Notes: generated by a model from the sequence alone, not told the origin. Shown: positions 8,669 to 63,630, numbered from the stretch's first letter. The stretch: 64,000 nucleotides of DNA from an uncultured Acidimicrobiales bacterium (GCA_963759225.1 CAVWYL010000036.1:77786-141785); one strand, 5' to 3'. Made by a program: numbers and translations.

Positions 8669-9296
8669 CTAGCGCTGCCGTTCGAGCTCGACCAGGCCGT
8701 CGCCCCCGGCGTCGGGGGCGAGCGCACGCCCACACGCCGCGCAGGTCAGGTCGTCGCCGAGCCGGGCGCCGCAGGTGCACACCCAGCCGATCTGCCGGGC
8801 CGGGTTGCCCACCACGAGGGCGTGGGCCGGGACGTCGCGGGTCACCACCGCGCCGGCCCCGACGAGGGCGTGGGGGCCGACGGTCGTGCCGCACACGACG
8901 GTGGCGTTGGCCCCGATCGTGGCGCCCGTGCGCACGGTGGTGGCCAGGAGCTCGTCCGCGGCCCTTCCGCACGTGCGCCCGGGGCTGATAGTCGTTGGTG
9001 AACACGACGTTGGGCCCGAGGAACACGTCGTCCTCGGCGGTCACGCCGTCGAAGACCAGCACGGCGTTCTTCACCGTGACACGGTCGCCGATGCGGGCCC
9101 CGCCCTCGACGAACGCGTGGTCGCAGATGTTGCAGTCGGCGCCGACGACCGCGCCGGGCAGCACGTGGGCCCAGGCCCAGACGCGGGTGCCGGGGCCGAC
9201 GTCGTCGCTCTCGCACAGCCCCTGGGGGTGGACGAAGACGCGGGGGTCGAGGGTCACGAGTGCACCCTTCGGCCGCACCGGTGACCCGATCGCCAC
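8669..9296 (-). CDS. Left-handed beta-helix sugar N-acetyltransferase, WbpD-like; one frame break
   Basis: ..VFVHPQGLCESDDVGPGTRVWAWAHVLPGAVVGADCNICDHAFVEGGARIGDRVTVKNAVLVFDGVTAEDDVFLGPNVVFTNDYQPRA is followed by RTGATIGANATVVCGTTVGPHALVGAGAVVTRDVPAHALVVGNPARQIGWVC. The layout follows the WbpD pattern (VFTN..PR, ARQIGW). The break lies near 8950. The true start may be GTG 9257. Confidence 0.65.
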
Positions 9297-9342
9297 TTCG
9301 TGGCGCAGGGCGGACTGTGCCTATGGACCTCGCGACGCTCGG

Positions 9343-10462
9343 TCATGCCGCCCCGCCCACGGCCGCCAGCAGCTCGCCCGCCACCCGCTCCTGCTGGGCG
9401 GCGGTGATGCCGGGGAACAGCGGCAGCGTCAGGATCTCGCCGGCCGCCGCCTCGGCCACCGGGAAGTCGCCGGGGCCGTGGCCCAGGTCGGCGTAGGCCC
9501 CGAGCAGGTGGACCGGGTGGGGGTAGTGGATGCCCGCCCCGATGCCGGCCCCCTGCAGCGTCGCCAGCACCGCGTCGCGCCGGGCGACCCGGACGACGTA
9601 GAGGTGCCACACGTGCTCGTTGCCGGGCAGCGTCGCCGGCAGGCCGACGCCGTCGTGGCCGCCCGAGCAGGTCGTCGTAGCGGCGCGGCGGCCTCCCGGC
9701 GCTGCTCGTTCCAGCCCGGCAGGCGGGCGAGCTTGGCCCGCAGCACCACCGCCTGGAGCGTGTCCAGCCGGGAGTTCATGCCGACGAGGTCGTGGTGGTA
9801 CTTGCGGGTGCCGCCGTGGTCCCGCAGGGCCCGCAGCGTGGCGGCGGTGGCGTCGTCGCCGGTGAGGACCGCGCCCGCATCGCCGTAGGCGCCCAGGTTC
9901 TTGCCCGGGTAGAAGCTGGTGCCGGCGACGACGCCCACGCCGCCGCTGCGCCGCCCGTGGTGGGTGGCGCCCTGCGACTGGGCCGCGTCCTCGACGAGGT
10001 CGACGCCGGGCGGCAGCACGTCCGCCAGGGCGTCGACCGGGGCCATCTGCCCGTAGAGGTGGACCGCCATGACGGCCCGGGTCCGGTCGGTGAGCGCCTT
10101 GGCCACGCAGCTCCGGGTCGATGAGCAGGTGGTCGGGGTCGCAGTCGACCAGCACGGGCTGGGCGCCGACCCGGCTGACCGCCTCGGCCGTGGCGACGAA
10201 CGTGTTGGCCGGCAGGATCACCTCGTCGCCGGGCCCGATGCCGCGGGCCCGCAGGGCCAGCTCGAGGGCGTCGGTGCCGTTGGCCACGCCGACGCAGTGG
10301 GCGGCGCCGGAGAACGCGGCGAACTCGTCCTCGAAGGCGGCCACGTCGGGGCCGAGGATGAAGGCGCCGGAGGCGGTCACCCGGTCCCAGCCGGCGGCCA
10401 CCTCGTCGGCCACTTGGGCGTGCTGGAGCTTCAGGTCGACCAGGGGGATGGGATCGGTTCAT
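9343..10462 (-). CDS. DegT/DnrJ/EryC1/StrS-family PLP sugar aminotransferase (WbpE/PglE-like); about four frame breaks
   Basis: ..IPLVDLKLQHAQVADEVAAGWDRV..FEDEFAAF..HCVGVANGTDALELALRA..VILPANTFVATAEAV continues as ..AVMAVHLYGQMAP..LVEDAAQSQGA..AGTSFYPGKNLGAYGDAGAV and then ..NEHVWHLYVVRV..GIHYPHPVH. ATG 10462 overlaps the upstream stop (ATGA). MNRS-IPLVDL is restored by dropping one base of the run at 10450-10452. Confidence 0.75.
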
Positions 10463-11155: not shown

Positions 11156-12437
11156 CGGCACCACGGCCGGCCTCGTCGACGACCCGGCGCACGATGGCCT
11201 CCACCGCCTGGCCGGACACGTCCCACGAGAGCGACCGCACGCTGGCGGCGGCGGCCACGGCATCGGCGTCGACCTCGGCCGGCGGCCGGGTGACGAGGCG
11301 GCCGAGCGCGTCGGCCAGGTCCTGGGCGGTCGGGGGCGTGTACGCGACGTGGTCGTTGTCGAGGACGATCCGGTTGTGGTCGGCGTCGTTGACGACCGGG
11401 GTGCAGCCCGCGGCCAGCATCTCGTGGGGCACGAGCGACACGTTCGTGGCCGACAGGACCAGGCCCGCGAGGCTGCGGTTGTAGAGCCGGCCCAGCTCGG
11501 CCGGGGTCATGACCCCGTGGTCGGTCGCGGGGAAGGGCATGCGCCCGACGGGGTCGCCGTAGAAGTGGATGTCGACGTCCGGGTGGCGGGACGAGAACAG
11601 CTCCAGCGCCAGCGCACCCAGGTCGAACGCCCGGCGGGGCGTGGTCGGCCGGGCGAAGAAGCACACGCCGGTGCGCCGGCCCGCGCCGCCGGAGGGGTCC
11701 TCCAGCCGGTAGTGGTCGAGGTCGCACCCGAAGTCGAAGTGGTCGGCGGGCATGCCGTACTCGGCGCGCAGCTTGCCGGAGAGCCACCGGCCGGCCGTGA
11801 TGCCGTGGAACCCGAACCCGTAGGTGGCCTCGGCCAGCAGCGCCTCGCCGCCGGCCGGGAAGAAGGAGGGCTCGAAGTCCTGGACGAAGTAGAAGCGCGC
11901 GCCCTTGGCCGGCGAGCCCGCGACCGCGTACGCGGTCGGCCATGCGGTGGCGATCACGGCGTGGGAGTCCTCGATGCCCGCCGCGGCGTCGCGCACCTCG
12001 GCCCGGACCCACGGCCACCACGAGCGCAGCACCCGCTCGTGGTCGTCGAGCGACCCGCCCCAGCGGTCGTAGAAGTAGAGGACGCACCGGTGCCCGGCCT
12101 GCTCGAGGGCGCCGACCATGCGCAGCATGGTGGTGTGGCCGCCGGACCCCTCGACGGGGGGCGTCATGACCCAGGCGACCGTCAGCGGCTCGCCCGGCAG
12201 GGCGGGCAGCGCGGCCGGGCGGGCGCCGGCCGCCTCGGCGGCCGCCACCACGTCCTCGCGGAGCACGTTGAGCATGTGGCTCGGCGGCGCCATCCGCTCG
12301 GACAGGCGGCGCAGCGCACGGGCGGCGACGCCGGAGGCGCCCTCGTGCTGCATCAGGCGGCGCGCCCGGCCCATCCTGCGGCCCACACTGCTCAGTGCGT
12401 CCATGCTCGACTCACTTCGCTCGCTTCGCTCGCTCAC
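11148..12437 (-). CDS. WsaF-like (rhamnosyltransferase-type) glycosyltransferase; intact
   Basis: ..PLTVAWVMTPPVEGSGGHTTMLRMV..CVLYFYD..ARFYFVQDFEPSFFPAGGE..GFHGITAGRWL..VCFFARPTTPRRAF. The YF.QDFEP motif is recalled from the WsaF family. The start is either GTG 12437 (it overlaps the flippase stop and reads VSERSERSESS) or ATG 12404 (MDALSS). Confidence 0.55.
   Translation of the reverse strand: MSERSERSESSMDALSSVGRRMGRARRLMQHEGASGVAARALRRLSERMAPPSHMLNVLREDVVAAAEAAGARPAALPALPGEPLTVAWVMTPPVEGSGGHTTMLRMVGALEQAGHRCVLYFYDRWGGSLDDHERVLRSWWPWVRAEVRDAAAGIEDSHAVIATAWPTAYAVAGSPAKGARFYFVQDFEPSFFPAGGEALLAEATYGFGFHGITAGRWLSGKLRAEYGMPADHFDFGCDLDHYRLEDPSGGAGRRTGVCFFARPTTPRRAFDLGALALELFSSRHPDVDIHFYGDPVGRMPFPATDHGVMTPAELGRLYNRSLAGLVLSATNVSLVPHEMLAAGCTPVVNDADHNRIVLDNDHVAYTPPTAQDLADALGRLVTRPPAEVDADAVAAAASVRSLSWDVSGQAVEAIVRRVVDEAGRGAGG
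12405..12437 (-). repeat. Junction repeat copy A: GTGAGCGAGCGAAGCGAGCGAAGTGAGTCGAGC
   Basis: The first 22 nt are identical to the copy at 47377. The TGA at 12436-12434 is the flippase stop. Confidence 0.8.
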
Positions 12438-13918
12438 GCCGCCACCTCCACGACCGGGGCCGGCGCCGCGACACGGAAGAGCTCGCCCCGCTGGTGCTGC
12501 CGCCACAACGGTAGGCCGACGACCAGGCCGTAGACCAGGGCCGACGCGAGCCCGCCGACGGCCAGCTGCGCGAAGTCCGTCGGGACCACGGCGAGGGCCG
12601 CCAGGGCGGTCAGCGCCATCAGGGCGCCGCCCAGCAGCGGCCGGGAGATCGGGCCGATGATCGACGCCGTCGTGACCCCGAGGCGGGACAGCGACCGCAT
12701 GAACGCCGGCATGACGACGACCAGCCAGCGCCAGCGACGTGACCCGCGGCCACCCCGGTGATGCCGCCGAGATGGGCCGCCACGATCAGCGTGGGGACGA
12801 GCGACACGAACCACAGCAGGTTGAGCCGCAGCGCCTCGTTGGACTTCCCCGCCGACACCAGGAAGTCGTAGGCGAGCTCGAGGGCCACCCGTGACGCGCC
12901 CAGCACCGCCAGGAACGCCAGCGGCCCGGCGGCGTCGGACCAGCGGGAGCCGTACACGAACCGCACGAGCGGGCCGCCCAGCACGCCGAGCAGCACGCAG
13001 GCGGGCACCACGGGCACGAACAGCATGCCGAGCGCCTGGCCGAAGCTCGCCCGGTAGCGCGGCGGTGTCGGCGCGCAGCTCGGAGAACGCCGGGAGGCTG
13101 ACGGCCCGCACGGTGGCGGAGAACGCCCCCACCGGCCAGCCCGACAGGTTGAAGGCGAGCACGTAGATGCCGAGCGCCGTCGGCCCGAGGACGTTGCCGA
13201 TCACGGCGTAGTCGACGTTCATCACCGCGAAGACCACGATGCTGGCGCCGGCCAGCGGCAGCCCGAACAGCAGGAGCCGGCGGGCCAGCGCCGCGTCCCA
13301 CGCCGGCCGGTAGCGCTTGGGAGCCAGCGCGAACGTGAAGGCGAACAGCACGATGTTGCCGATCACCCGCGACCAGGCGAGGCTCCAGGCCCCGAACCCG
13401 GCCGACGCCATGGCGATGGCCACCGCGGTCGTCACCGCGAACGACACCGTGTCGGCGATCAGCTTGCGGTCCTGGAGGAACTCGCGCTGGATGCAGGCCG
13501 ACGGCGTGGCCGAGAGGCCGGCGATGACGAGCGACAGGGCGAGGACCCGGATGGGGCCGGTGGCGGCCGGGGCCCCGAGGGCCTGCGCCAGCCACGGCGC
13601 CAGCAGCGCCATCAGCGCACCCAGGCCGACGCCCGAGGCCACGGAGAGGGTGGTGACGACCGGTGCGATGCGGTCGACCTCCTCGCGGTCCTTGGCCTGG
13701 ACGATGGCGACGCTCACCCCCAGCTCGCTGACGCTGATCACGACCGACAGCACCACGAGCGCGGCGGCGAACACACCGAACTCGGACGGTGCGATCAGCC
13801 GGGCCAGGACGATCCCGACGAAGAGCTGGCCGACCCGACCGATGATCGTGTTGACCGTGCTCCAGGCCAGGCCGCGGCCGACCTTGGCGCCCAGCGTGCG
13901 CTCGCGGCGCTCGCTCAC
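12434..13918 (-). CDS. Wzx-type oligosaccharide flippase (MOP/polysaccharide biosynthesis protein family); about three frame breaks
   Basis: GTG 13918 opens VSERRERTLGAKVGRGLAWSTVNTIIGRVGQLFVGIVLARLIAPSEFGVFAAAL, followed by 12-14 TM helices. The sequence continues in ORF 12619..13026 (LFVPVVPACVLLGVLGGPLVRFVYGSRW..) and returns to the first frame (..WLVVVMPAFMRSLSRLGV..). The breaks lie near 13050 and 12730. Confidence 0.7.
   Translation of the reverse strand: MSERRERTLGAKVGRGLAWSTVNTIIGRVGQLFVGIVLARLIAPSEFGVFAAALVVLSVVISVSELGVSVAIVQAKDREEVDRIAPVVTTLSVASGVGLGALMALLAPWLAQALGAPAATGPIRVLALSLVIAGLSATPSACIQREFLQDRKLIADTVSFAVTTAVAIAMASAGFGAWSLAWSRVIGNIVLFAFTFALAPKRYRPAWDAALARRLLLFGLPLAGASIVVFAVMNVDYAVIGNVLGPTALGIYVLAFNLSGWPVGAFSATVRAVSLPAFSELRADTAALPGELRPGARHAVRARGARLRAARRAGRPARAVRVRLPLVRRRRAAGVPGGAGRVTGGPRARLRLPGVGGEVQRGAAAQPAVVRVARPHADRGGPSRRHHRGGRGSRRWRWLVVVMPAFMRSLSRLGVTTASIIGPISRPLLGGALMALTALAALAVVPTDFAQLAVGGLASALVYGLVVGLPLWRQHQRGELFRVAAPAPVVEVAA
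13895..13918 (-). repeat. Junction repeat, weaker copy E: GTGAGCGAGCGCCGCGAGCGCACG (it forms the flippase start)
   Basis: It matches the consensus at 11 of the first 11 nt and again at GCGAGCG. Here it is clearly coding (VSERRERT). Confidence 0.5.
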
Positions 13919-23294: not shown

Positions 23295-24759
<1,465 letters not shown>

Positions 24760-24763
<4 letters not shown>

Positions 24764-46141: not shown

Positions 46142-47307
46142 GGGCGAGGACCTCCTCACGGATGCGGTCGATGGTGCGGGCCAGGTCGGCGAGGGCGGCG
46201 TCGCTCGTGACCGGCTCGGGTGCGAGAGCCTTGCGCAGCTCGGCCTCGTCGAGCGACGTGCGCTCGGCGGCCACGGCCACGAGCACGTCGACGCCCGCAC
46301 CGGCGGGGACACCGAGCCGGTCGGCCAGGAACCGCCGCAGGTCGGCCTGCAGCAGGGCGGCGGCGTGCTGGGGCGAGCGGCTGCGGTCGAGCAGGTTGCC
46401 GACCGCCGCCACCAGCTCGGACCCGGCCACGGCCACCGGCTGGCGCTCGGGAACGGGGCGGCCGAGCCGCCGGGCGCGCCACAGCGCGTAGACGACGAAG
46501 GCCAGCGCCGCCTGCAGCAGGCCCCGCTTGACCCCGGGCGAGATCAGGTCGACGAGCGAGTCGCCGTCGCCGCCGGAGCTGCCGAGGAACCCCGGCTCCA
46601 GCACGGTGAGGCGGGTGCCCTCCCGGGGCGCCAGGAACGCCGCCGCCACCGGGGCGTTCTCGCCCTCGTCCAGCGCCGCGTTCACGAGGATGCCCGCCCC
46701 GCCCATGGCCACGACGGTCCCGTCGCCGTCCCCGGTGGCCACGATGTAGGCGCCGCCGGCGTACCTCGACGCAGGACGCCGAGCCCACGGGCGGCTGGTA
46801 GAGCAGACCGCCGTTGTGGGGCTCGATCCCGCCGGCCTCGATGCCGTCGAGGGCCTCGATCTCGCAGGCGGCGGTGAGGCGGGCCGGCGTCCCCAGCTCG
46901 GAGACCTCGTCGAAGAACCCCGACTCGGCGGGCGCGAACGACGACAGGGAGTCGGTGACGACCAGCACGCCGCCGCGGCGGACCCAGTCCTCGACCTCGC
47001 CGGTCTGGTCCTCGTCGAGCAGGTCCTGGAACAGCAGCACGACGTCGGGCGGCTCGGGGCCGTCGAGGTCCGGGAGCCGGTCCGCCACGTCCACCTCGGC
47101 GCCGAGGTCGCCGGCCAGCGCCACGAGCGCGCTGGTCCCGAGCTCCTCGTCCGAGCGGGGCGACAGCGGCGGCCCGCTGCTGCCGGCGCCCACGGCCAGG
47201 ACACCGAGGACGACGACGAGGGCGATGAACCCGCCCAGCAGCCACGGCTGGACGCCCCCGCCGCCGCGGGCCCGGGCGCGCTCACCGGTGCACCCTTCGG
47301 GGTGCAC
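46134..47307 (-). CDS. DUF4350-like membrane-anchored protein; one frame break near 46780
   Basis: The N-terminal TM helix is VQPWLLGGFIALVVVLGVLAV. It is followed by ..DVVLLFQDLLDEDQ..GGVLVVTD, and then, in ORF 46134..47285, ..VVAMGGAGILVNAAL..AALAFVVYALWRARRLGRPV. The family call is from memory and from the operon context. The start is GTG 47307 or GTG 47285. Confidence 0.55.
47288..47307 (-). other. Perfect 8-bp hairpin GTGCACCC-TTCG-GGGTGCAC covering the candidate start of the DUF4350 gene
   Basis: Read directly from the sequence. The loop is CGAA on the transcribed strand. Confidence 0.7.
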
Positions 47308-47310
47308 GCA

Positions 47311-47377
47311 GTGAGCGAGCGGCCCTCCGGGCCGGGTACCGCACTGTGCTGCTGGTTCGCTCGCTTCGCTCGCTCAC
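47311..47377 (-). repeat. Junction repeat copy C, a 67-bp inverted-repeat element (11-bp termini GTGAGCGAGCG / CGCTCGCTCAC)
   Basis: 47311-47321 is the exact reverse complement of 47367-47377. An inner hairpin GGCCC-TCC-GGGCC lies at 47321-47333. The TGA at 47376-47374 is the stop of the DUF4129 gene. Confidence 0.8.
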
Positions 47378-48027
47378 GGCACGCCCACCGGCTCGGCCCG
47401 GCGGCGGGCCTCGTCGGCCAGCGGGACGAAGCGGTCGCGGTCCCCGGGGCCCACGGGCGCGCCGCCGTACCAGGCGGCCTCGAACAGGTCGGTGGCGGCG
47501 GCGAAGGCGGGACCGGCGGCGGGCGCCACCGCCCGGACCTCGGCCGTGAGCTCGCCCGTCGTGCGCCCGACGAGGTCGCCGAGCACGCCCCGGGCCGCGA
47601 GGTCGCCGACGAGCACCCGGTAGCGGGCCCGCAGCGCGTCCCGCCAGCGGCCCTCGGCCTCGGCCCGGGCCACCTCGGCCGGCCAGTCGACCAGGTCCTC
47701 GTCCGCCGACACGACCACCCGTCCCCGGCCCCCGCGCCGGCCCGGCCCGGCGGCGCGCAGCCACGAGTCCCGGGTGCGCCAGATCAGGTAGGCCAGGCCG
47801 CCGAGCAGGGCCCCGAGGATGAGGTAGCCGACCCACACGGGCAGCCCCCCGAACGCCAGGGCGGAGCCGAGCCGGGCCAGCTGGTCGCCGATCCAGTCGT
47901 TGATCCGCTCGATGAGCGTGCGGTCGTCGGCCCACCGGTACTCGGGGCGCGACAGGATCTCGTCGGCGAGCTGCCGGGCCTGGTCCGGATCGTGGGTGGG
48001 CTCCGGCAGGTCGAGGGGCAGCGGCAC
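47374..48027 (-). CDS. DUF4129 domain membrane protein
   Basis: ..QARQLADEILSRPEYRW.. is followed by the TM helix LPVWVGYLILGALLGGLAYLIW and then ..TGELTAEVR..LFEAAWYGG. The gene is intact. Confidence 0.6.
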   Translation of the reverse strand: MPLPLDLPEPTHDPDQARQLADEILSRPEYRWADDRTLIERINDWIGDQLARLGSALAFGGLPVWVGYLILGALLGGLAYLIWRTRDSWLRAAGPGRRGGRGRVVVSADEDLVDWPAEVARAEAEGRWRDALRARYRVLVGDLAARGVLGDLVGRTTGELTAEVRAVAPAAGPAFAAATDLFEAAWYGGAPVGPGDRDRFVPLADEARRRAEPVGVP

Positions 48028-48029
48028 CG

Positions 48030-49039
48030 TCAGCCGGCCCGGTCCAGCACGCGGCCGGCGGCCATCTCGATGTCGAGGCCCTCGGTGCGGACCCGCAGGT
48101 CGAGGTAGAGCAGCACCGTGGCGGCGGCCACGAACGGCAGGACGATCAGCTCGGAGACGATGGACGCCCAGGGCCAGGAGCGGCCAGCCGCTGCTCGAAG
48201 CCGATCCAGCTGGCGAGGAGCTGCGGCAGCGCGCTGAGGGCCAGGCTGAGCAGCTCGCTCACGATCGCCATGACGATCGCGACCCCGAGCGCCGGGAAGT
48301 AGCGGGGCCGGACCAGCCGGACCGAGCGCCCCATGGCCGCCAGCGGGCCCAGGCCCTCGACCGCGATCACGGGCGCCACGACGAGGAACAGCGCCATCAC
48401 GAAGACGATGCCGATGTAGCACCCGAAGGCGCCCGCCCCCTCGGCCAGCTTGACCAGCACGAACGACGCCAGCAGCGGCCAGGCCCGCCGGCCGACGACC
48501 CCGAGCAGCTCGCCCGCCGCCGGGTCGCGGCCCATCATCCACTGGGTGATCAGGTGGGCGAGGGCGGCGGCCACGCACACGAGGGCGCTCGTGGCCAGGA
48601 ACAGCACCGCCAGCATGGCCACCAGCTGCCAGTCGGCGGTGTTCGACTGCTCGTCGAGGATGGTGGGATCGTTCGACAGCATGCTGGAGACGTCGAAGCC
48701 CGAGCTCGCCACGTCGCGCTGCAGGAACGCCGCCAGGAGCTGGGCCGGCACCACGAACACCGCCGTCACGGCCAGGATCCGCTTGGGGCGGGCCTTCAGC
48801 ACCGCGAACCCGCCGTCGAGGATGTCGGCCGTCGTCCGGGGATACAGCGCGACGCGGGGCACGTCGGGGGCGCCGGGCGCCGCGGCCGGCGGACCGTCGG
48901 CCACCACCGAGCCCCAGCCGGACACGGCCGGGGCGTCGACCGGAGCGTCGCGCACCGGCTGGTCGACGGACGAGCCGGGCATGGCCCAGCCCTGCTCCCC
49001 TCCCGCGCGACCGGCCTGTTCCTCCACGGGCGACATCAT
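48030..49039 (-). CDS. Polytopic membrane protein heading the MoxR operon, function unknown; frame break(s) near 48180
   Basis: MMSPVEEQAG..ILDGGFAVLKARPKRILAVTAVFVVPAQLL is followed by several TM helices. The C-terminus ..SIVSELIVLPFVAAATVLLYLDLRVRTEGLDIE is in ORF 48030..49046. Confidence 0.5.
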
Positions 49040-60616: not shown

Positions 60617-62676
60617 CCGCACAGGCCCGGCGCGACGACGTCGCCGAGAGCGTGCACGGCGTGACCGTGCCCGACCCCTACCGCTGGCTGGAGGACGGCG
60701 ACGATCCCGCCACCCGGGCGTGGGTCGAGGCCGAGAACGCCCGGACCCGGGCCACCCTCGACGCCCGCCCCGAGCGGGCCGGCCTCGTCGCCCGGTTCAC
60801 CGACCTGTTCTCGGCCGGGACGGCCGGGGCCCCGTCGATCCGGGGCGGGCGCCTGTTCTCGGTCGACCGCTGGGCGGGCCACGAGCAGGCCGTGCTCGTG
60901 GTGCGCGACGCCCACGGCGAGGCGGTCCCGGCCGCCCGCACGCTGCTCGACCCCCACGAGGTCACCGGCGACGCCACCGCCGCCCTCGACTGGTACGCGC
61001 CGTCCAAGGACGGCCGGCTGGTGGCCTACGGCGTGTCCACCGGCGGCGACGAGCGCTCGACGCTGGGCGTCGTCGACGTGGCCACCGGCGAGATCCTGGC
61101 CGACCGCATCCCCCACACCCGGGCGGCGTCGGTCAGCTGGGCGCCCGACGGGTCCGCCTTCGCCTACACCCGCTACCCCGACCCCGCGGTCGTGGGCGAC
61201 GAGGAGGCCAACTACAACCGCACCGTCCGCTGGCACATCCTCGGCGACGACCCGGGCCACGACGAGGTCGTGTTCGCGCACCTGCCCGACAAGACGGCGT
61301 GGCCGTCGGTCGAGCTGTCCCGGGACGGGCGCTGGCTGGTGATCGAGGTGTCGCTCGGCTGGACCCGCACCGACGTCTACCTGATCGACCGCACGACCGG
61401 GGACCGGACCACGGTGATCGAGGGCGTCGACACCGTGTCCTCGTTCACCGTGGTGGGCGACCGGCTCGTCGGCACCACCCTGCTCGACGCCCCCCGGGGA
61501 CGGGTGGTGACGGCACCGCTGGCGTCCCCGACCCCCGACCACTGGCGGACCGTCGTCGCCGAGTCGGACGACGTCGTCGAGGGCGTGGCCGTCACCGCGT
61601 CGTCGCTGCTGGTGGCGACCAGCAGGCGGGCCACCAGCCGCCTCGGTCGGGTCCCGCTGGCGGCGCTCGACGGCGACGCGCCGGTCGTGCCCGAGGACAT
61701 CCCGCTGCCCGAGCCCGGGTCGCTGGCCGGCGTCGCCGGCGACCGGGACAGCGAGACGGCGGTGATCGGCTTCACCTCGTGGGCCCGGCCGTCCGAGCTG
61801 TGGCGCTGGGTCCCCGGCGAGCCGCTGCGCCGGTGGAGCGACCTGCCCTCCCCCGTCGACCCCGCGGCGTACGCGGTGGGCGTCGACCGCTACCCGTCGA
61901 CCGACGGCGCCGAGATCACGCTGTTCACCGTGCGCCGCCGCGACGTCGCACCCGGCCCGGCCACGCCCACGCTGCTCACCGGCTACGGCGGGTTCGCGGT
62001 GTCGATGAGCCCGGCCTACAGCCCGACGGCGGTGGCCGTGGCCGACGACGGCGGCGTCTTCGCCGTCGCCTGCATCCGGGGCGGGTCCGAGGACGGCGAG
62101 GACTGGCACCGGGCCGGCATGCGCGACCGCAAGCAGCAGGTGTTCGACGACTTCGCGGCGGCGGCCGACTGGCTGGTGGCCGAGGGCCGGACCGGGCGCG
62201 ACCGCCTGGCCATCCGGGGCGGCAGCAACGGCGGGCTGCTGGTCGCCACCACGCTGACCCAGCGGCCGGACCTGTGCCGGGCGGCCGTGTGCGCGGTGCC
62301 GCTGACCGACATGGTCCGCTTCCCCCGGTTCCTCATCGCCAAGCTGTGGACGCCGGAGTACGGCGACCCCGAGGTGGCCGAGGAGTTCGCCTGGCTGTGG
62401 GCCTACTCGCCGTACCACCACCTGGTCGAGGGCACCTGCTACCCGGCCACGCTGGTGCTGACCGGCGAGGAGGACAGCCGGGTCGATCCCGCCCACGCCC
62501 GCAAGTTCGGCGCCGCGCTGGCGTGGGCCACGTCGTGCCCCGAGGAGCGGCCGGTGCTGGTGCGGGTCGAGTCCCGGGCCGGGCACGGCCAGGGCAAGCC
62601 GGCCTCCAAGCAGGCCGAGGAGGCCGCCGACGTCCACGCCTTCCTGCGCTGGCAGATCGGCGTGGGCGCCGGGTGA
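60613..62676 (+). CDS. Prolyl oligopeptidase (S9A serine peptidase)
   Basis: MTAQARRDDVAESVHGVTVPDPYRWLED.. opens the beta-propeller. ..GGSNGGLLV is the catalytic Ser motif, followed by ..GEEDSRVDP..AGHG. The gene is 687 aa and intact. Its ATG overlaps the RES stop (ATGA). Confidence 0.85.
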   Translation: MTAQARRDDVAESVHGVTVPDPYRWLEDGDDPATRAWVEAENARTRATLDARPERAGLVARFTDLFSAGTAGAPSIRGGRLFSVDRWAGHEQAVLVVRDAHGEAVPAARTLLDPHEVTGDATAALDWYAPSKDGRLVAYGVSTGGDERSTLGVVDVATGEILADRIPHTRAASVSWAPDGSAFAYTRYPDPAVVGDEEANYNRTVRWHILGDDPGHDEVVFAHLPDKTAWPSVELSRDGRWLVIEVSLGWTRTDVYLIDRTTGDRTTVIEGVDTVSSFTVVGDRLVGTTLLDAPRGRVVTAPLASPTPDHWRTVVAESDDVVEGVAVTASSLLVATSRRATSRLGRVPLAALDGDAPVVPEDIPLPEPGSLAGVAGDRDSETAVIGFTSWARPSELWRWVPGEPLRRWSDLPSPVDPAAYAVGVDRYPSTDGAEITLFTVRRRDVAPGPATPTLLTGYGGFAVSMSPAYSPTAVAVADDGGVFAVACIRGGSEDGEDWHRAGMRDRKQQVFDDFAAAADWLVAEGRTGRDRLAIRGGSNGGLLVATTLTQRPDLCRAAVCAVPLTDMVRFPRFLIAKLWTPEYGDPEVAEEFAWLWAYSPYHHLVEGTCYPATLVLTGEEDSRVDPAHARKFGAALAWATSCPEERPVLVRVESRAGHGQGKPASKQAEEAADVHAFLRWQIGVGAG

Positions 62677-62691
62677 GCGAGCGAAGCGAGC
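62673..62691 (+). repeat. Junction repeat copy D: GTGAGCGAGCGAAGCGAGC
   Basis: The 19 nt are identical to copies A and C. The TGA at 62674-62676 is the oligopeptidase stop. Confidence 0.8.
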
Positions 62692-63630
62692 ACCGGCCCC
62701 GACGTCTTCGCCCGCGTCCGGGACGCCTGCGCCACGGTGGCGGGCGCCGCGGCGTACGTGACGGTGGACGAGGCCGCGGTCGAGGCGCTGGCCTCCACCG
62801 TCTCCCCGGAGGACCCGCCGCTGCTCCCCGAGGAGCGGGCCGCCGGCGACGAGGACGCGGTGGCATCCTCGGTCCTGGCCTGGAACGCCGTGAACTTCGG
62901 GTCGGGCTGGTTCCCCGACCTGCGCAAGCGCCCCGGGCTGTCGGGCGCCCGCACGCTGGCCGCGTGCCTGTCCGACCATGTGGAGCGGGAGGGTCCGCCG
63001 ACCGCCACCTGGCTGTGCCAGGCCGACCCGGCCACGTGCGCGGCGGTGTTCGGCCAGCCCTACCCGGGCCCGGTCGACGACCTGCTGGCCCTGTTCGCCC
63101 GGGCCTGGCGCGAGCTGGGGGCGCTGCTGACCGACCGGTTCGCGGGCTCGGCGGCGGCGCTCGTCCGCTCGGCGGGCGGCTCGGCCGCCGAGCTGGTGTC
63201 GACCCTCGACGCCCTGCCGCTGATGCACGACGTGGCCCAGCACGGCGACGTCGAGGTCCCGCTGTACAAGCGGGCCCAGATCACCGCGTCGCACCTGTCC
63301 CGGGCCACCGGCGGCACCGGCATCGGCGCCTTCGCCGACATCGACCGCCTGACCGCGTTCGCCGACAACCTGGTGCCCCACACCCTGCGGATGGCGGGGG
63401 TGCTGGTCTACGACGACGGGCTCGCCGACCGCATCGAGGGCGGCGACCTGCTGGCGCCCGGGTGCGCCGAGGAGGTCGAGATCCGGGCGTGCGGCGTCCA
63501 CGCCGTCGAGCTGCTGGCCGCCCGCACCGGGCTCACGCCGGCCGCGCTCGACCATCAGCTGTGGCAGCGGGGCCAGGATCCGGCGGTCAAGGCGGTCCCC
63601 CGCCACCGGTGCCGCTGCCCGTACTACTGA
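62673..63630 (+). CDS. Queuosine salvage family protein (DUF2419 / Qng1-like)
   Basis: ..VLAWNAVNFGSGWFP..LYKRAQITASHL..FADNLVPHTLR. The conserved N-terminus (DVFARVRDACATVAG) lies upstream of the first in-frame start, GTG 62737. It becomes in frame with GTG 62673 if one C of CCCC 62697-62700 is dropped. Confidence 0.65.

What the first reader, a model, noticed from the sequence alone, without database searches (positions are those of the whole stretch)
12405..12437. The string GTGAGCGAGCGAAGCGAGCGAA recurs exactly on stop/start junctions of unrelated operons
There are four strong copies:
- minus strand 12437-12405, between the flippase and the WsaF-like GT;
- minus strand 24763-24721, between gatC and gatA;
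- minus strand 47377-47336, between DUF4129 and DUF4350;
- plus strand 62673-62691, between the prolyl oligopeptidase and the Qng1-like gene.

The first 19-22 nt are identical in three copies and consist of a tandem 9-mer, GCGAGCGAA twice. The 24.7-kb and 47.3-kb copies stay alignable for about 40 nt (..GAACCAG.AGCACAGTG). The 12.4-kb and 24.7-kb copies share a 3' end, GTGAGTC.GA. A weaker copy opens the flippase gene at 13918.

In every strong copy the TGA at positions 2-4 is the stop codon of the upstream gene. The GTG at positions 1-3 is also the best or only start candidate for the downstream gene, reading V-S-E-R-S-E-R. Nucleotide identity across four unrelated junctions is not explained by protein constraint.

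Inference: this is either a small REP/MITE-like intergenic cassette that donates a stop plus a start, or a conserved translational-coupling or RNA-binding signal.
Basis: seen in the sequence. Interest (0 to 1): 0.7.

Follow-up and report, generated by a model that had tools for sequence, protein, structure and literature searches.

The report
MIRU-like mobile insert at start codons
The repeated string is the front end of a small mobile DNA element, very like the MIRU repeats of the tuberculosis bacillus, that inserts where one gene's stop codon overlaps the next gene's start and carries a tiny reading frame that probably keeps the two genes translated together.

Summary
The repeat is real: four strong copies, none expected by chance, and in each the TGA is the upstream gene's stop. 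But it is only the 5' arm of a longer element.

The window, from an uncultured Acidimicrobiales bacterium, holds two full-length copies of about 90 nt:
- 47377-47282(-)

It also holds three short forms, at 12437, 24763 and 62673.

Each full copy runs from one RTGA to the next. It contains a 30-31-codon mini-ORF whose start overlaps the upstream stop and whose stop overlaps the downstream GTG. That GTG is buried in a terminal hairpin.

Close relatives, up to 98% protein identity, have a plain 4-nt GTGA/ATGA overlap at the same junctions. So these are insertions.

The same design recurs at unrelated genes in Kitasatospora, Nocardia, Kribbella, Micromonosporales, Streptosporangiales and other Acidimicrobiia. 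One locus has a tandem pair of 77-nt units.

Every architectural feature described for mycobacterial MIRUs is matched. MIRU motifs A and B are absent; only the GAGCGNAGCGA core is shared.

I conclude this is a new variant of a known kind. Translational coupling and the transposition mechanism are inferred, not shown. The window has 1-nt indels, so the "GTG = start" claim is only partly right.

The parts
47282..47377 (-). Full-length element s3 (type B). It runs from GTGA, where TGA is the DUF4129 gene's stop, to GTGA, where GTG 47285 is the DUF4350 gene's start. The mini-ORF is 31 codons plus a stop.
   Evidence: CM score is 111.8 bits. The site is empty (a plain GTGA overlap) in L120 (98% aa), L121, L122 and L123.
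47356..47377 (-). It reads RTGA + GC-[GA]-GC-GAA-GC-[GA]-GC, that is a GCGAAGC mini-hairpin extended by tandem G.A pairs and two G-C pairs.
   Evidence: RNAalifold pairs columns 5-19, 6-18, 9-15 and 10-14. Mini-hairpin literature: PMC13037366.
47320..47334 (-). Central hairpin of s3: CGGCCC-GGA-GGGCCG.
   Evidence: Two of its six pairs show compensatory changes across five type B copies.
47279..47317 (-). 3' terminal hairpin of s3: GCUCACUG-CGUGCACCC-CGAA-GGGUGCACCG-GUGAGC. It buries the downstream GTG start. An inverted copy of GTGAGCGAGCG lies at 47311-47321(+).
   Evidence: (z = -2.67).
9254..9346 (-). Full-length element s6, with a diverged 5' arm (ATGACC GAGCGTCGCGAGG...). It lies between the DegT-like aminotransferase (stop TGA 9345-9343) and the hexapeptide transferase (GTG 9257). 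The mini-ORF is 30 codons, and its stop TGA 9256-9254 overlaps the GTG.
   Evidence: CM hit of 47.7 bits, E = 3.6e-8. Sequence and ORFs, Pfam. The site is empty (ATGACC) in the 85% relative L124.
12405..12437 (-). Short form s1, the coordinates of the finding. It is the 22-nt 5' arm plus GTGAGTCGAGC, 33 nt in frame between the flippase stop and ATG 12404 of the WsaF-like glycosyltransferase.
   Evidence: The relative L125 (80%) has GTGAGCGAGCAGAGCGAGCGATCG-ATG (24 nt, in frame). L124 (85%) has a diverged 36-nt in-frame spacer.
24731..24763 (-). Short form s2. It has 30 nt from GTGA (the gatC stop) to a second GTGA (the probable gatA start, GTG 24733). It equals the first ~33 nt of s3 joined directly to the start codon.
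   Evidence: The relatives L153 (93%) and L154 (94%) have a plain GTGA/ATGA gatC-gatA overlap. GTG 24733 is 1 nt out of frame with gatA in this assembly.
62673..62691 (+). Short form s4: the 19-nt 5' arm on the prolyl-oligopeptidase stop, upstream of the Q_salvage (Qng1-like) gene.
   Evidence: L126 (98%) has the arm in frame (VSERSERAINVFARV). L128 (83%) and L129-L133 (75%) have plain GTGA overlaps.
13897..13918 (-). Not a copy. This is the ordinary coding start of the flippase (V-S-E-R-R-E-R-T-L-G...).

Best explanation
The string is the 5' arm of a family of small (about 77-96 nt) non-autonomous mobile elements that insert at RTGA tetranucleotides. An RTGA is a start codon whose fourth base makes TGA, most often the 4-nt stop/start overlap of two genes in one operon.

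After insertion the element is flanked by RTGA on both sides. Its internal reading frame of 24-31 codons starts on the first RTGA, overlapping the upstream stop. It ends on the second RTGA, overlapping the downstream start.

The 3' end carries a purine-rich SD-like stretch and a hairpin that pairs the downstream start codon with an internal TCAY.

Inferred mechanism of tolerance:
- Ribosomes finishing the upstream gene re-initiate on the mini-ORF.
- They unwind the terminal hairpin, terminate on the start codon of the downstream gene and re-initiate there.
- The operon therefore stays translationally coupled and the insertion is nearly neutral.

The short copies (24-33 nt, multiples of 3) are 5' arms retained in frame. 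They either extend the downstream protein's N-terminus (SERSER...) or provide an upstream in-frame start.

How the element moves is unknown. The hairpins topped by GNA-type loops and GCGAAGC mini-hairpins, the tetranucleotide target and the better folding of the sense strand suggest a single-stranded DNA intermediate.

Shown here: insertion, architecture, distribution and structure conservation. Inferred: coupling and the mode of transposition.
For: 1. Filled versus empty sites.
   - s3 is absent from L120 (98% aa, 97.8% nt), L121, L122 and L123, which all read ..GGTGAGCGC...
   - s6 is absent from L124.
   - s2 is absent from L153 and L154.
   - The s4 arm is present in L126 but absent in L128-L133.
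2. An unbiased 17-mer scan of genomes gave about 24 actinobacterial loci where the motif is preceded by AT or GT. In 15 of the 24, the RTG opens a 20-62-codon ORF ending in an RTGA that overlaps a long ORF. Only 3.8% of other RTGA sites in the same loci do this (p about 5e-16).
3. The hosts span Streptomycetales, Micromonosporales, Streptosporangiales, Propionibacteriales, Nocardia and Acidimicrobiia, at unrelated genes.
4. The 3' start codon is paired in the terminal hairpin in 16-17 of 19 elements. The R:Y pair covaries perfectly (8 A-T, 8 G-C). Compensatory pairs occur in the central and 3' hairpins.
5. The sense strand folds better than the antisense strand in 18 of 20 elements (p = 0.003).
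6. Kitasatospora L002 has two tandem 77-nt units.
7. The literature describes MIRUs with the same properties: insertion at start codons with -4 coupling (PMC12548453), and empty/filled sites, tetranucleotide direct repeats and overlapping ORFs (PMC3184786).
Against: - No expression, Ribo-seq or proteomic data exist, so coupling is inferred from geometry only.
- The nearest-neighbour model gives the 5' arm hairpin no significant stability. Its stability rests on published mini-hairpin measurements.
- No transposase or autonomous partner was identified.
- The left boundary and the length of the target duplication are ambiguous (4 to 7 nt), because typical gene starts (RTGAGC) resemble the element's own 5' end.
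- In two type B copies (L058, L068) and in s6, the 5' and 3' R differ (A versus G).
- The genome-wide copy number in the source organism could not be measured. Relatives' loci L123 and L124 (42 kb) carry no copy.
Confidence: 0.8

Rival explanations
1. It is a conserved cis-acting RNA signal kept by selection at particular operon junctions. Candidates would be a translational-coupling enhancer, an RNase processing site or a protein-binding site. On this view it is not a mobile element.
For: The 5' arm is nearly invariant across two actinobacterial classes. Structure is conserved and sense-strand biased. The s1 arm is retained at the same junction in an 80% relative.
Against: - It is absent from the same junction in relatives of 85-98% identity.
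- It is found at unrelated genes in each genome.
- One locus has tandem duplication (L002).
- There is no Rfam match, even at E = 10.
Confidence: 0.1
2. The SERSER-coding string is a real N-terminal peptide extension under protein-level selection, such as a tag or signal shared by the downstream proteins.
For: The short forms are multiples of 3 nt and in frame with the downstream gene at s1, in L125 and in L126. They are also in frame in L008, L112 and L115.
Against: - Nucleotide identity far exceeds what a 6-residue peptide would need.
- The full-length copies put the string in a separate mini-ORF with no conserved peptide beyond the arm.
- Homologues of the WsaF-like glycosyltransferase, GatA and the Q_salvage protein lack the extension.
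Confidence: 0.05
3. It is chance or compositional similarity, or an assembly artefact. GTGAGCGAGCG encodes M-S-E-R, a common high-GC gene start, and the window assembly has errors.
For: The 13918 'copy' is exactly such an ordinary gene start. The window carries 1-nt indels.
Against: - Zero matches are expected in shuffles.
- The same element occurs in independent Illumina metagenome contigs and isolate genomes such as Nocardia pneumoniae NBRC 100136, Kribbella, Kitasatospora and Asanoa.
- The CM recovers full-length copies at E values of 1e-8 to 1e-22.
Confidence: 0.03

Closest known systems
Mycobacterial interspersed repetitive units (MIRUs; Supply et al. 1997)
   Same: - Size of 40-100 bp, including a 77-nt unit.
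- Location between co-oriented genes of operons and same orientation as the genes.
- An internal small ORF whose ends overlap the flanking stop and start codons (-4 spacing).
- Tetranucleotide direct repeats and filled/empty sites.
- Occasional tandem units.
- Shared core GAGCG-N-AGCGA. MIRU motif B ends ..GCAGAGCGTAGCGA, and an M. intracellulare repeat reads ..GCAGAGCGAAGCGATG (PMC12548453, PMC3184786, PMC4213456, PMC6286618, PMC10117815).
   Different: - MIRU motifs A (24 nt) and B (29 nt) are not found in the window or in any fetched locus at up to 5 or 6 mismatches.
- Here the GAGCGAAGCGAG hairpin sits directly on the 5' RTGA instead of mid-unit.
- The hosts are Acidimicrobiia and many non-mycobacterial Actinomycetes. 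The literature read here calls MIRUs mycobacterial only.
- The window has single copies, not VNTR arrays.
MITEs with coding-compatible ends (Correia/NEMIS, ERIC, RUP, BOX)
   Same: Short, non-autonomous, multi-copy and structured. They are co-transcribed with neighbouring genes and show target-site duplication.
   Different: There are no terminal inverted repeats beyond the 4-nt GTGA/TCAC. Orientation is strictly with the gene and insertion is on the start codon. No parental IS is known.
REP/BIME elements with RAYT transposases, and IS200/IS605-derived PATEs
   Same: They are built from hairpins plus a specific tetranucleotide next to the hairpin foot. The internal TCAY is complementary to the RTGA target, reminiscent of guide-target pairing. 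The structure is strand-specific.
   Different: No Y1/HUH transposase is linked here. REPs sit mostly downstream of genes, lack ORFs and have no stop/start phasing. IS200/IS605 elements do not duplicate their target. This comparison is a lead from memory, not a test.
Hirao mini-hairpin d(GCGAAGC)/d(GCGNAGC)
   Same: The centre of the 5' arm is GCGAAGC (Tm 76.5 C, PMC13037366). The type A 3' block has GCGCAGC. Central hairpins have C-GNA-G triloops.
   Different: That is a structural motif, not a genetic element. Its role here is inferred.

Membership tests
MIRU (architecture) | A 40-100 bp unit located between co-oriented ORFs, in the same orientation as them | tested here: met
   s3 is 96 nt and s6 is 93 nt. 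Other loci are 75-96 nt, with composites up to 189 nt. All are co-oriented with the flanking ORFs.
MIRU (architecture) | An internal small ORF whose ends overlap the stop codon of the upstream gene and the start codon of the downstream gene | tested here: met
   s3 mini-ORF is 47377-47282 and s6 mini-ORF is 9346-9254. 15 of 24 loci fit, against a 3.8% background.
MIRU (architecture) | Filled/empty site polymorphism with tetranucleotide direct repeats | tested here: met
   RTGA lies on both sides. Empty sites are in L120-L123, L124, L153 and L154.
MIRU (architecture) | Tandem arrays with variable unit number (VNTR) | tested here: inconclusive
   There are two tandem 77-nt units in Kitasatospora L002. 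The window has single copies only. Copy-number variation between strains was not examined.
MIRU (sequence family) | Motif A TGACGAGGAGCGGCGCAGATGGCA and motif B GGCGCCGGTGACGATGCAGAGCGTAGCGA (PMC6286618) | tested here: not met
   No match at up to 5 or 6 mismatches in the window or any locus. Only the 11-nt core GAGCG.AGCGA is shared.
MITE | Terminal inverted repeats | tested here: not met
   The 5' end GTGAGCGAGCG and the 3' end ..GGTGCACCGGTGA share only GTGA/TCAC. In s3 the inverted copy of the 5' 11-mer is internal, at 47311-47321.
MITE | Target-site duplication | tested here: met
   RTGA is duplicated. The apparent duplication is 5-7 nt at s3 (GTGAGCG), s6 (TGACC) and s2 (GTGAG).
REP/RAYT or IS200/IS605-derived PATE | An associated Y1 HUH transposase and hairpin-adjacent cleavage tetranucleotide | not tested
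   No transposase search was possible across whole genomes. The hairpin plus the RTGA/TCAY geometry is only suggestive.
Any Rfam RNA family | A match to a curated covariance model | tested here: not met
   There were 0 hits at gathering thresholds over the window, and 0 hits at E <= 10 over 47200-47450.

The most novel reading that the evidence does not exclude
MIRUs may be only the mycobacterial branch of a superfamily found across Actinomycetota. Its members would be start-codon-homing elements built from DNA mini-hairpins of the form GA-GC-GNA-GC-GA. They would move through a single-stranded DNA intermediate, find RTGA start codons by pairing with an internal TCAY guide, and carry a ready-made translational-coupling cassette. 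The same 17-19-mer hairpin tip in REP-like elements of other phyla and in AT-rich phage contigs would then point to a widely shared host or transposase recognition structure.
Probability: 0.25. Interest if true: 0.75.

Novelty: new variant of a known kind. Interest (0 to 1): 0.55.

Why it matters
- It shows that the MIRU design is not a mycobacterial oddity. An insertion that lands on a start codon and bridges the gap with a coupled mini-ORF recurs in at least two classes of Actinomycetota, with a different and highly conserved 5' hairpin.
- That gives comparative material for two open questions: how MIRU-type elements move, and whether their mini-ORFs really relay ribosomes.
- It has practical consequences for annotation. 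Spurious 'MSERSER...' N-termini, mis-called starts and 25-30-codon ORFs at operon junctions in high-GC genomes can be recognised and masked.
- Insertion polymorphisms of this kind could serve as strain markers in uncultured Acidimicrobiia, as MIRU-VNTRs do for tuberculosis.

Tried and rejected
- **Rfam** (gathering thresholds on the whole window; E <= 10 on s3): no hits.
- **Blastn-short self-search** of the window: no further copies, only noise. The CM later found s6.
- **Literature search for the motif string itself:** no paper.
- **'MIRU-like' in other actinobacteria:** nothing relevant.
- **My first remembered MIRU fragments:** no hits. Later fragments hit two papers that print MIRU motifs.
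- **Exact-protein look-ups** of the window's GatC and DUF4129 proteins: not on record.
- **Plasmid collection blastn** with a type A element: no match, possibly because of low-complexity masking.
- **PMC104664** (Magdalena 1998): not held.
- **Alifold on the type A alignment:** failed to capture the variable 3' hairpin. Per-sequence folding was used instead.
- **Nearest-neighbour folding of the 5' arm as DNA:** no significant stability, so the mini-hairpin argument rests on literature.
- **Rejected: the GTG of the motif as the downstream start at every copy.** Frame analysis is.
- **Rejected: 13918 as a copy**.
- **Rejected: a programmed frameshift at gatA or the Q_salvage gene.** The window shows unrelated 1-nt indels relative to three independent relatives.

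Full report
**1. Observation**

The 22-mer GTGAGCGAGCGAAGCGAGCGAA occurs exactly at 12437-12416(-) and 47377-47356(-). It occurs with 3 mismatches at 62673-62694(+) and 13918-13897(-). None is expected in 100 dinucleotide shuffles.

The 24763(-) copy shares GTGAGCGAGCGA, then has two small deletions. It realigns with the 47.3-kb copy through GAACCAG.AGCACAGTG.

The window is 71-78% G+C. Its best named protein matches are 'MAG: Acidimicrobiales bacterium'.

In all four strong copies the TGA is the stop of a long upstream ORF. Pfam confirmed these gene pairs:
- Polysacc_synt flippase / WsaF-like glycosyltransferase
- GatC / GatA
- DUF4129 / DUF4350
- prolyl oligopeptidase / Q_salvage

**2. The string is the 5' arm of a longer element**

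At 47.3 kb the GTG opens a 31-codon ORF. Its TGA (47284-47282) overlaps GTG 47285, the start of the DUF4350 gene. So the unit is GTGA...92 nt...GTGA.

It contains three parts:
- the 5' arm
- a central hairpin (CGGCCC-GGA-GGGCCG)
- a long terminal hairpin, GCUCACUG-CGUGCACCC-CGAA-GGGUGCACCG-GUGAGC, that buries the downstream start (z = -2.67)

**3. The family outside the window**

I scanned one genome per species with the 17-mer GAGCGAGCGAAGCGAGC, deliberately leaving off the GT.

In about 24 actinobacterial loci the motif is preceded by AT or GT. A second RTGA follows 71-92 nt later, at the start of a long ORF.

Two main forms appear:
- **Type A.** RTGA-GCGAGCGAAGCGAGCGAATCA..ACACAGCGCG..hairpin with the loop CCGAGCGCAGCGAGG..RTGA. 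The unit is 77-80 nt. It is found in Kitasatospora, Planosporangium, Microbispora, Nocardioides, Nocardia, Kribbella and Asanoa. L086 (Nonomuraea candida) is a shorter, more divergent member at 71 nt that lacks the CCGAGCG.AGCGAGG loop.
- **Type B.** The window's form, ending CGCTCACTGCGTGCAYCCCGAAGGGTGCACCRGTGA. It is found in other Acidimicrobiia, including a MAG that is an 80-93% relative of the window.

In 15 of 24 such sites the RTG opens a 20-62-codon ORF that ends in an RTGA overlapping a long ORF. Only 67 of 1758 other RTGA sites in the same loci do so (p about 5e-16).

About 7 of 24 have no long upstream ORF. The target is therefore an RTGA start codon rather than a junction as such.

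Kitasatospora L002 has two tandem 77-nt units.

**4. A missed copy**

A covariance model built from five type B copies recovered all known copies. It also found a new one in the window at 9346-9254(-), at 47.7 bits and E = 3.6e-8.

This copy has:
- a diverged 5' arm (ATGACC-GAGCGTCGCGAGG)
- the same central and terminal hairpins
- a 30-codon mini-ORF that bridges the DegT-like gene's TGA and GTG 9257 of a hexapeptide transferase gene

**5. These are insertions**

| Site | Relatives compared | State in relatives |
|---|---|---|
| DUF4129/DUF4350 (s3) | 98%, 81%, 76%, 62% protein identity | All have a plain GTGA overlap. Example L120: ..GGGCGCGCGGTGAGCGCGCCCC.. The window has GTGAGCG on both sides of a 92-nt insert. 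|
| 9.3-kb site (s6) | L124, 85% | Reads ..GGAGGCATGACCAGCGAC.. |
| gatC/gatA (s2) | 93% and 94% | Plain GTGA or ATGA overlap |
| Q_salvage (s4) | L126 98%; L128 83%; L129-L133 75% | 98% relative has the arm in frame (VSERSERAINVFARV). The 83% and 75% relatives have plain GTGA overlaps. |
| 12.4-kb site (s1) | L125 80%; L124 85% | 80% relative keeps a near-identical arm (24 nt, in frame). The 85% relative has a diverged 36-nt in-frame spacer, so this copy is older. |

**6. Structure**

Folding each element shows the downstream start codon paired inside the terminal hairpin in 16-17 of 19 cases. The R of RTG always faces the matching Y (8 A-T, 8 G-C). The central and terminal hairpins show compensatory changes. 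The sense strand folds better than the antisense strand in 18 of 20 elements (p = 0.003).

The 'tandem 9-mer' reads GC-[GA]-GC-GAA-GC-[GA]-GC. That is the GCGAAGC mini-hairpin (Tm 76.5 C, PMC13037366) extended by tandem G.A pairs and two G-C pairs.

The type A block CC-GA-GC-GCA-GC-GA-GG has the same build. Standard energy models do not score this hairpin as stable.

**7. Comparison with what is known**

Rfam has nothing. The literature describes MIRUs as follows:
- 40-100-bp units with 77- and 53-bp classes
- sited between genes of operons
- small ORFs overlapping the flanking stop and start
- tetranucleotide direct repeats and filled/empty sites
- 'inserting at start codons' with -4 coupling

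Sources: PMC12548453, PMC3184786 and PMC4213456. Every architectural feature is matched here.

By sequence, MIRU motifs A and B (PMC6286618) are absent from the window and all loci. Only GAGCG-N-AGCGA is shared. It also appears in an M. intracellulare repeat primer..GCAGAGCGAAGCGATG (PMC10117815).

I therefore file the element as working like a MIRU and probably related to MIRUs, but not as a member of the mycobacterial sequence family.

**8. Caveat on frames**

Relative to L120, L121 and L123, the window's DUF4350 gene switches frame at about 46765. It also has a 1-nt deletion at 47276. Two more 1-nt gaps lie at 48193 and 48166.

The window therefore carries indels of the homopolymer type. 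The GTGs at 24733 (gatA) and 62673 (Q_salvage) are each 1 nt out of frame. Each sits next to a short C run, and the Illumina-derived 98% relative is in frame. An error is the simplest reading.

However, three frame breaks within about 25 nt of elements is more than the background of roughly 1 per 900 nt would give. This remains unexplained.

**9. Mechanism**

Shown here:
- insertion at RTGA
- the bridging mini-ORF
- the SD-like stretch
- the sequestered start codon
- wide distribution

Inferred:
- ribosomes relay from the upstream gene through the mini-ORF to the downstream start, which is why such insertions survive inside operons
- the short in-frame arms persist because they keep a usable start
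- mobility uses a single-stranded DNA intermediate, suggested by the GNA-type loops, mini-hairpins and TCAY:RTGA complementarity

No transposase was identified.

**10. Verdict**

This is a real and well-defined feature. It is a new, non-mycobacterial variant of the MIRU kind of element. Interest is moderate, because the principle is known while the breadth, the conserved hairpin arm and the link to MIRUs are new leads.

Noticed in passing
window 46764-47276 and 48166-48193: The window has 1-nt indels relative to a 97.8%-identical relative (L120). The DUF4350 gene is encoded in frame -2 for residues 5-174 and in frame -3 for residues 174-383, whereas L120, L121 and L123 are contiguous. This suggests an error-prone assembly or a pseudogene.
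   Followed up: partly
window 24725-24735, 62690-62700, 47276: Frame-breaking 1-nt differences cluster within about 25 nt downstream of three of the five element copies. That is more than the background indel rate would predict. Possible causes are sequencing trouble at stable hairpins, or a consensus built from strains with and without the insert.
   Followed up: partly
L014, L015, L048, L060, L062, L065, L066 (Alphaproteobacteria); L026, L039, L046, L047, L073, L075 (Actinomycetes): The same 17-mer forms the tip of REP-like hairpins with different stems. Examples are GTCATCCTGAG-GAGCGAGCGAAGCGAGC-GTCTCGAAGGATGA and GGTGGTTGAG-...-GTCTCGAAACCACC. A ~27-nt core, TGAGGAGCGAGCGAAGCGAGCGTCTCGAA, is shared across the two phyla.
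   Followed up: no
L155-L195 (IMG/VR viral contigs): The 19-mer TGAGCGAGCGAAGCGAGCG occurs in 41 viral contigs. Many are AT-rich (32-45% GC), several matches are near contig ends, and several are followed by A/T runs. This is not the actinobacterial element; its role is unknown.
   Followed up: partly
L010, L018, L056, L072, L098 (Coriobacteriaceae/Atopobiaceae MAGs): A separate multi-copy family, GACTCACGAA-GTGAGCGAGCGAAGCGAGCGCGGAGCCGC, uses the same arm after a CTCAC-GAA-GTGAG hairpin.
   Followed up: no
L006, L036, L070 (Micromonosporaceae/Actinomycetales MAGs); L016 (Myxococcales): There are tandem or closely spaced units containing the 17-mer, with periods of 51, 54 and 36 nt. L016 has three copies about 230 nt apart. 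The arrays look minisatellite-like, reminiscent of MIRU-VNTR loci.
   Followed up: no
window 13897-13918: The flippase gene starts GTGAGCGAGCGCCGCGAGCGC (MSERRER). This is an ordinary coding start that resembles the element's arm. Such RTGAGCG starts may be preferred targets.
   Followed up: yes
L003 (135 nt), L085 (189 nt), L094 (126 nt): These are longer composite elements with extra internal hairpins between the same 5' arm and 3' end, which suggests modular build-up.
   Followed up: no
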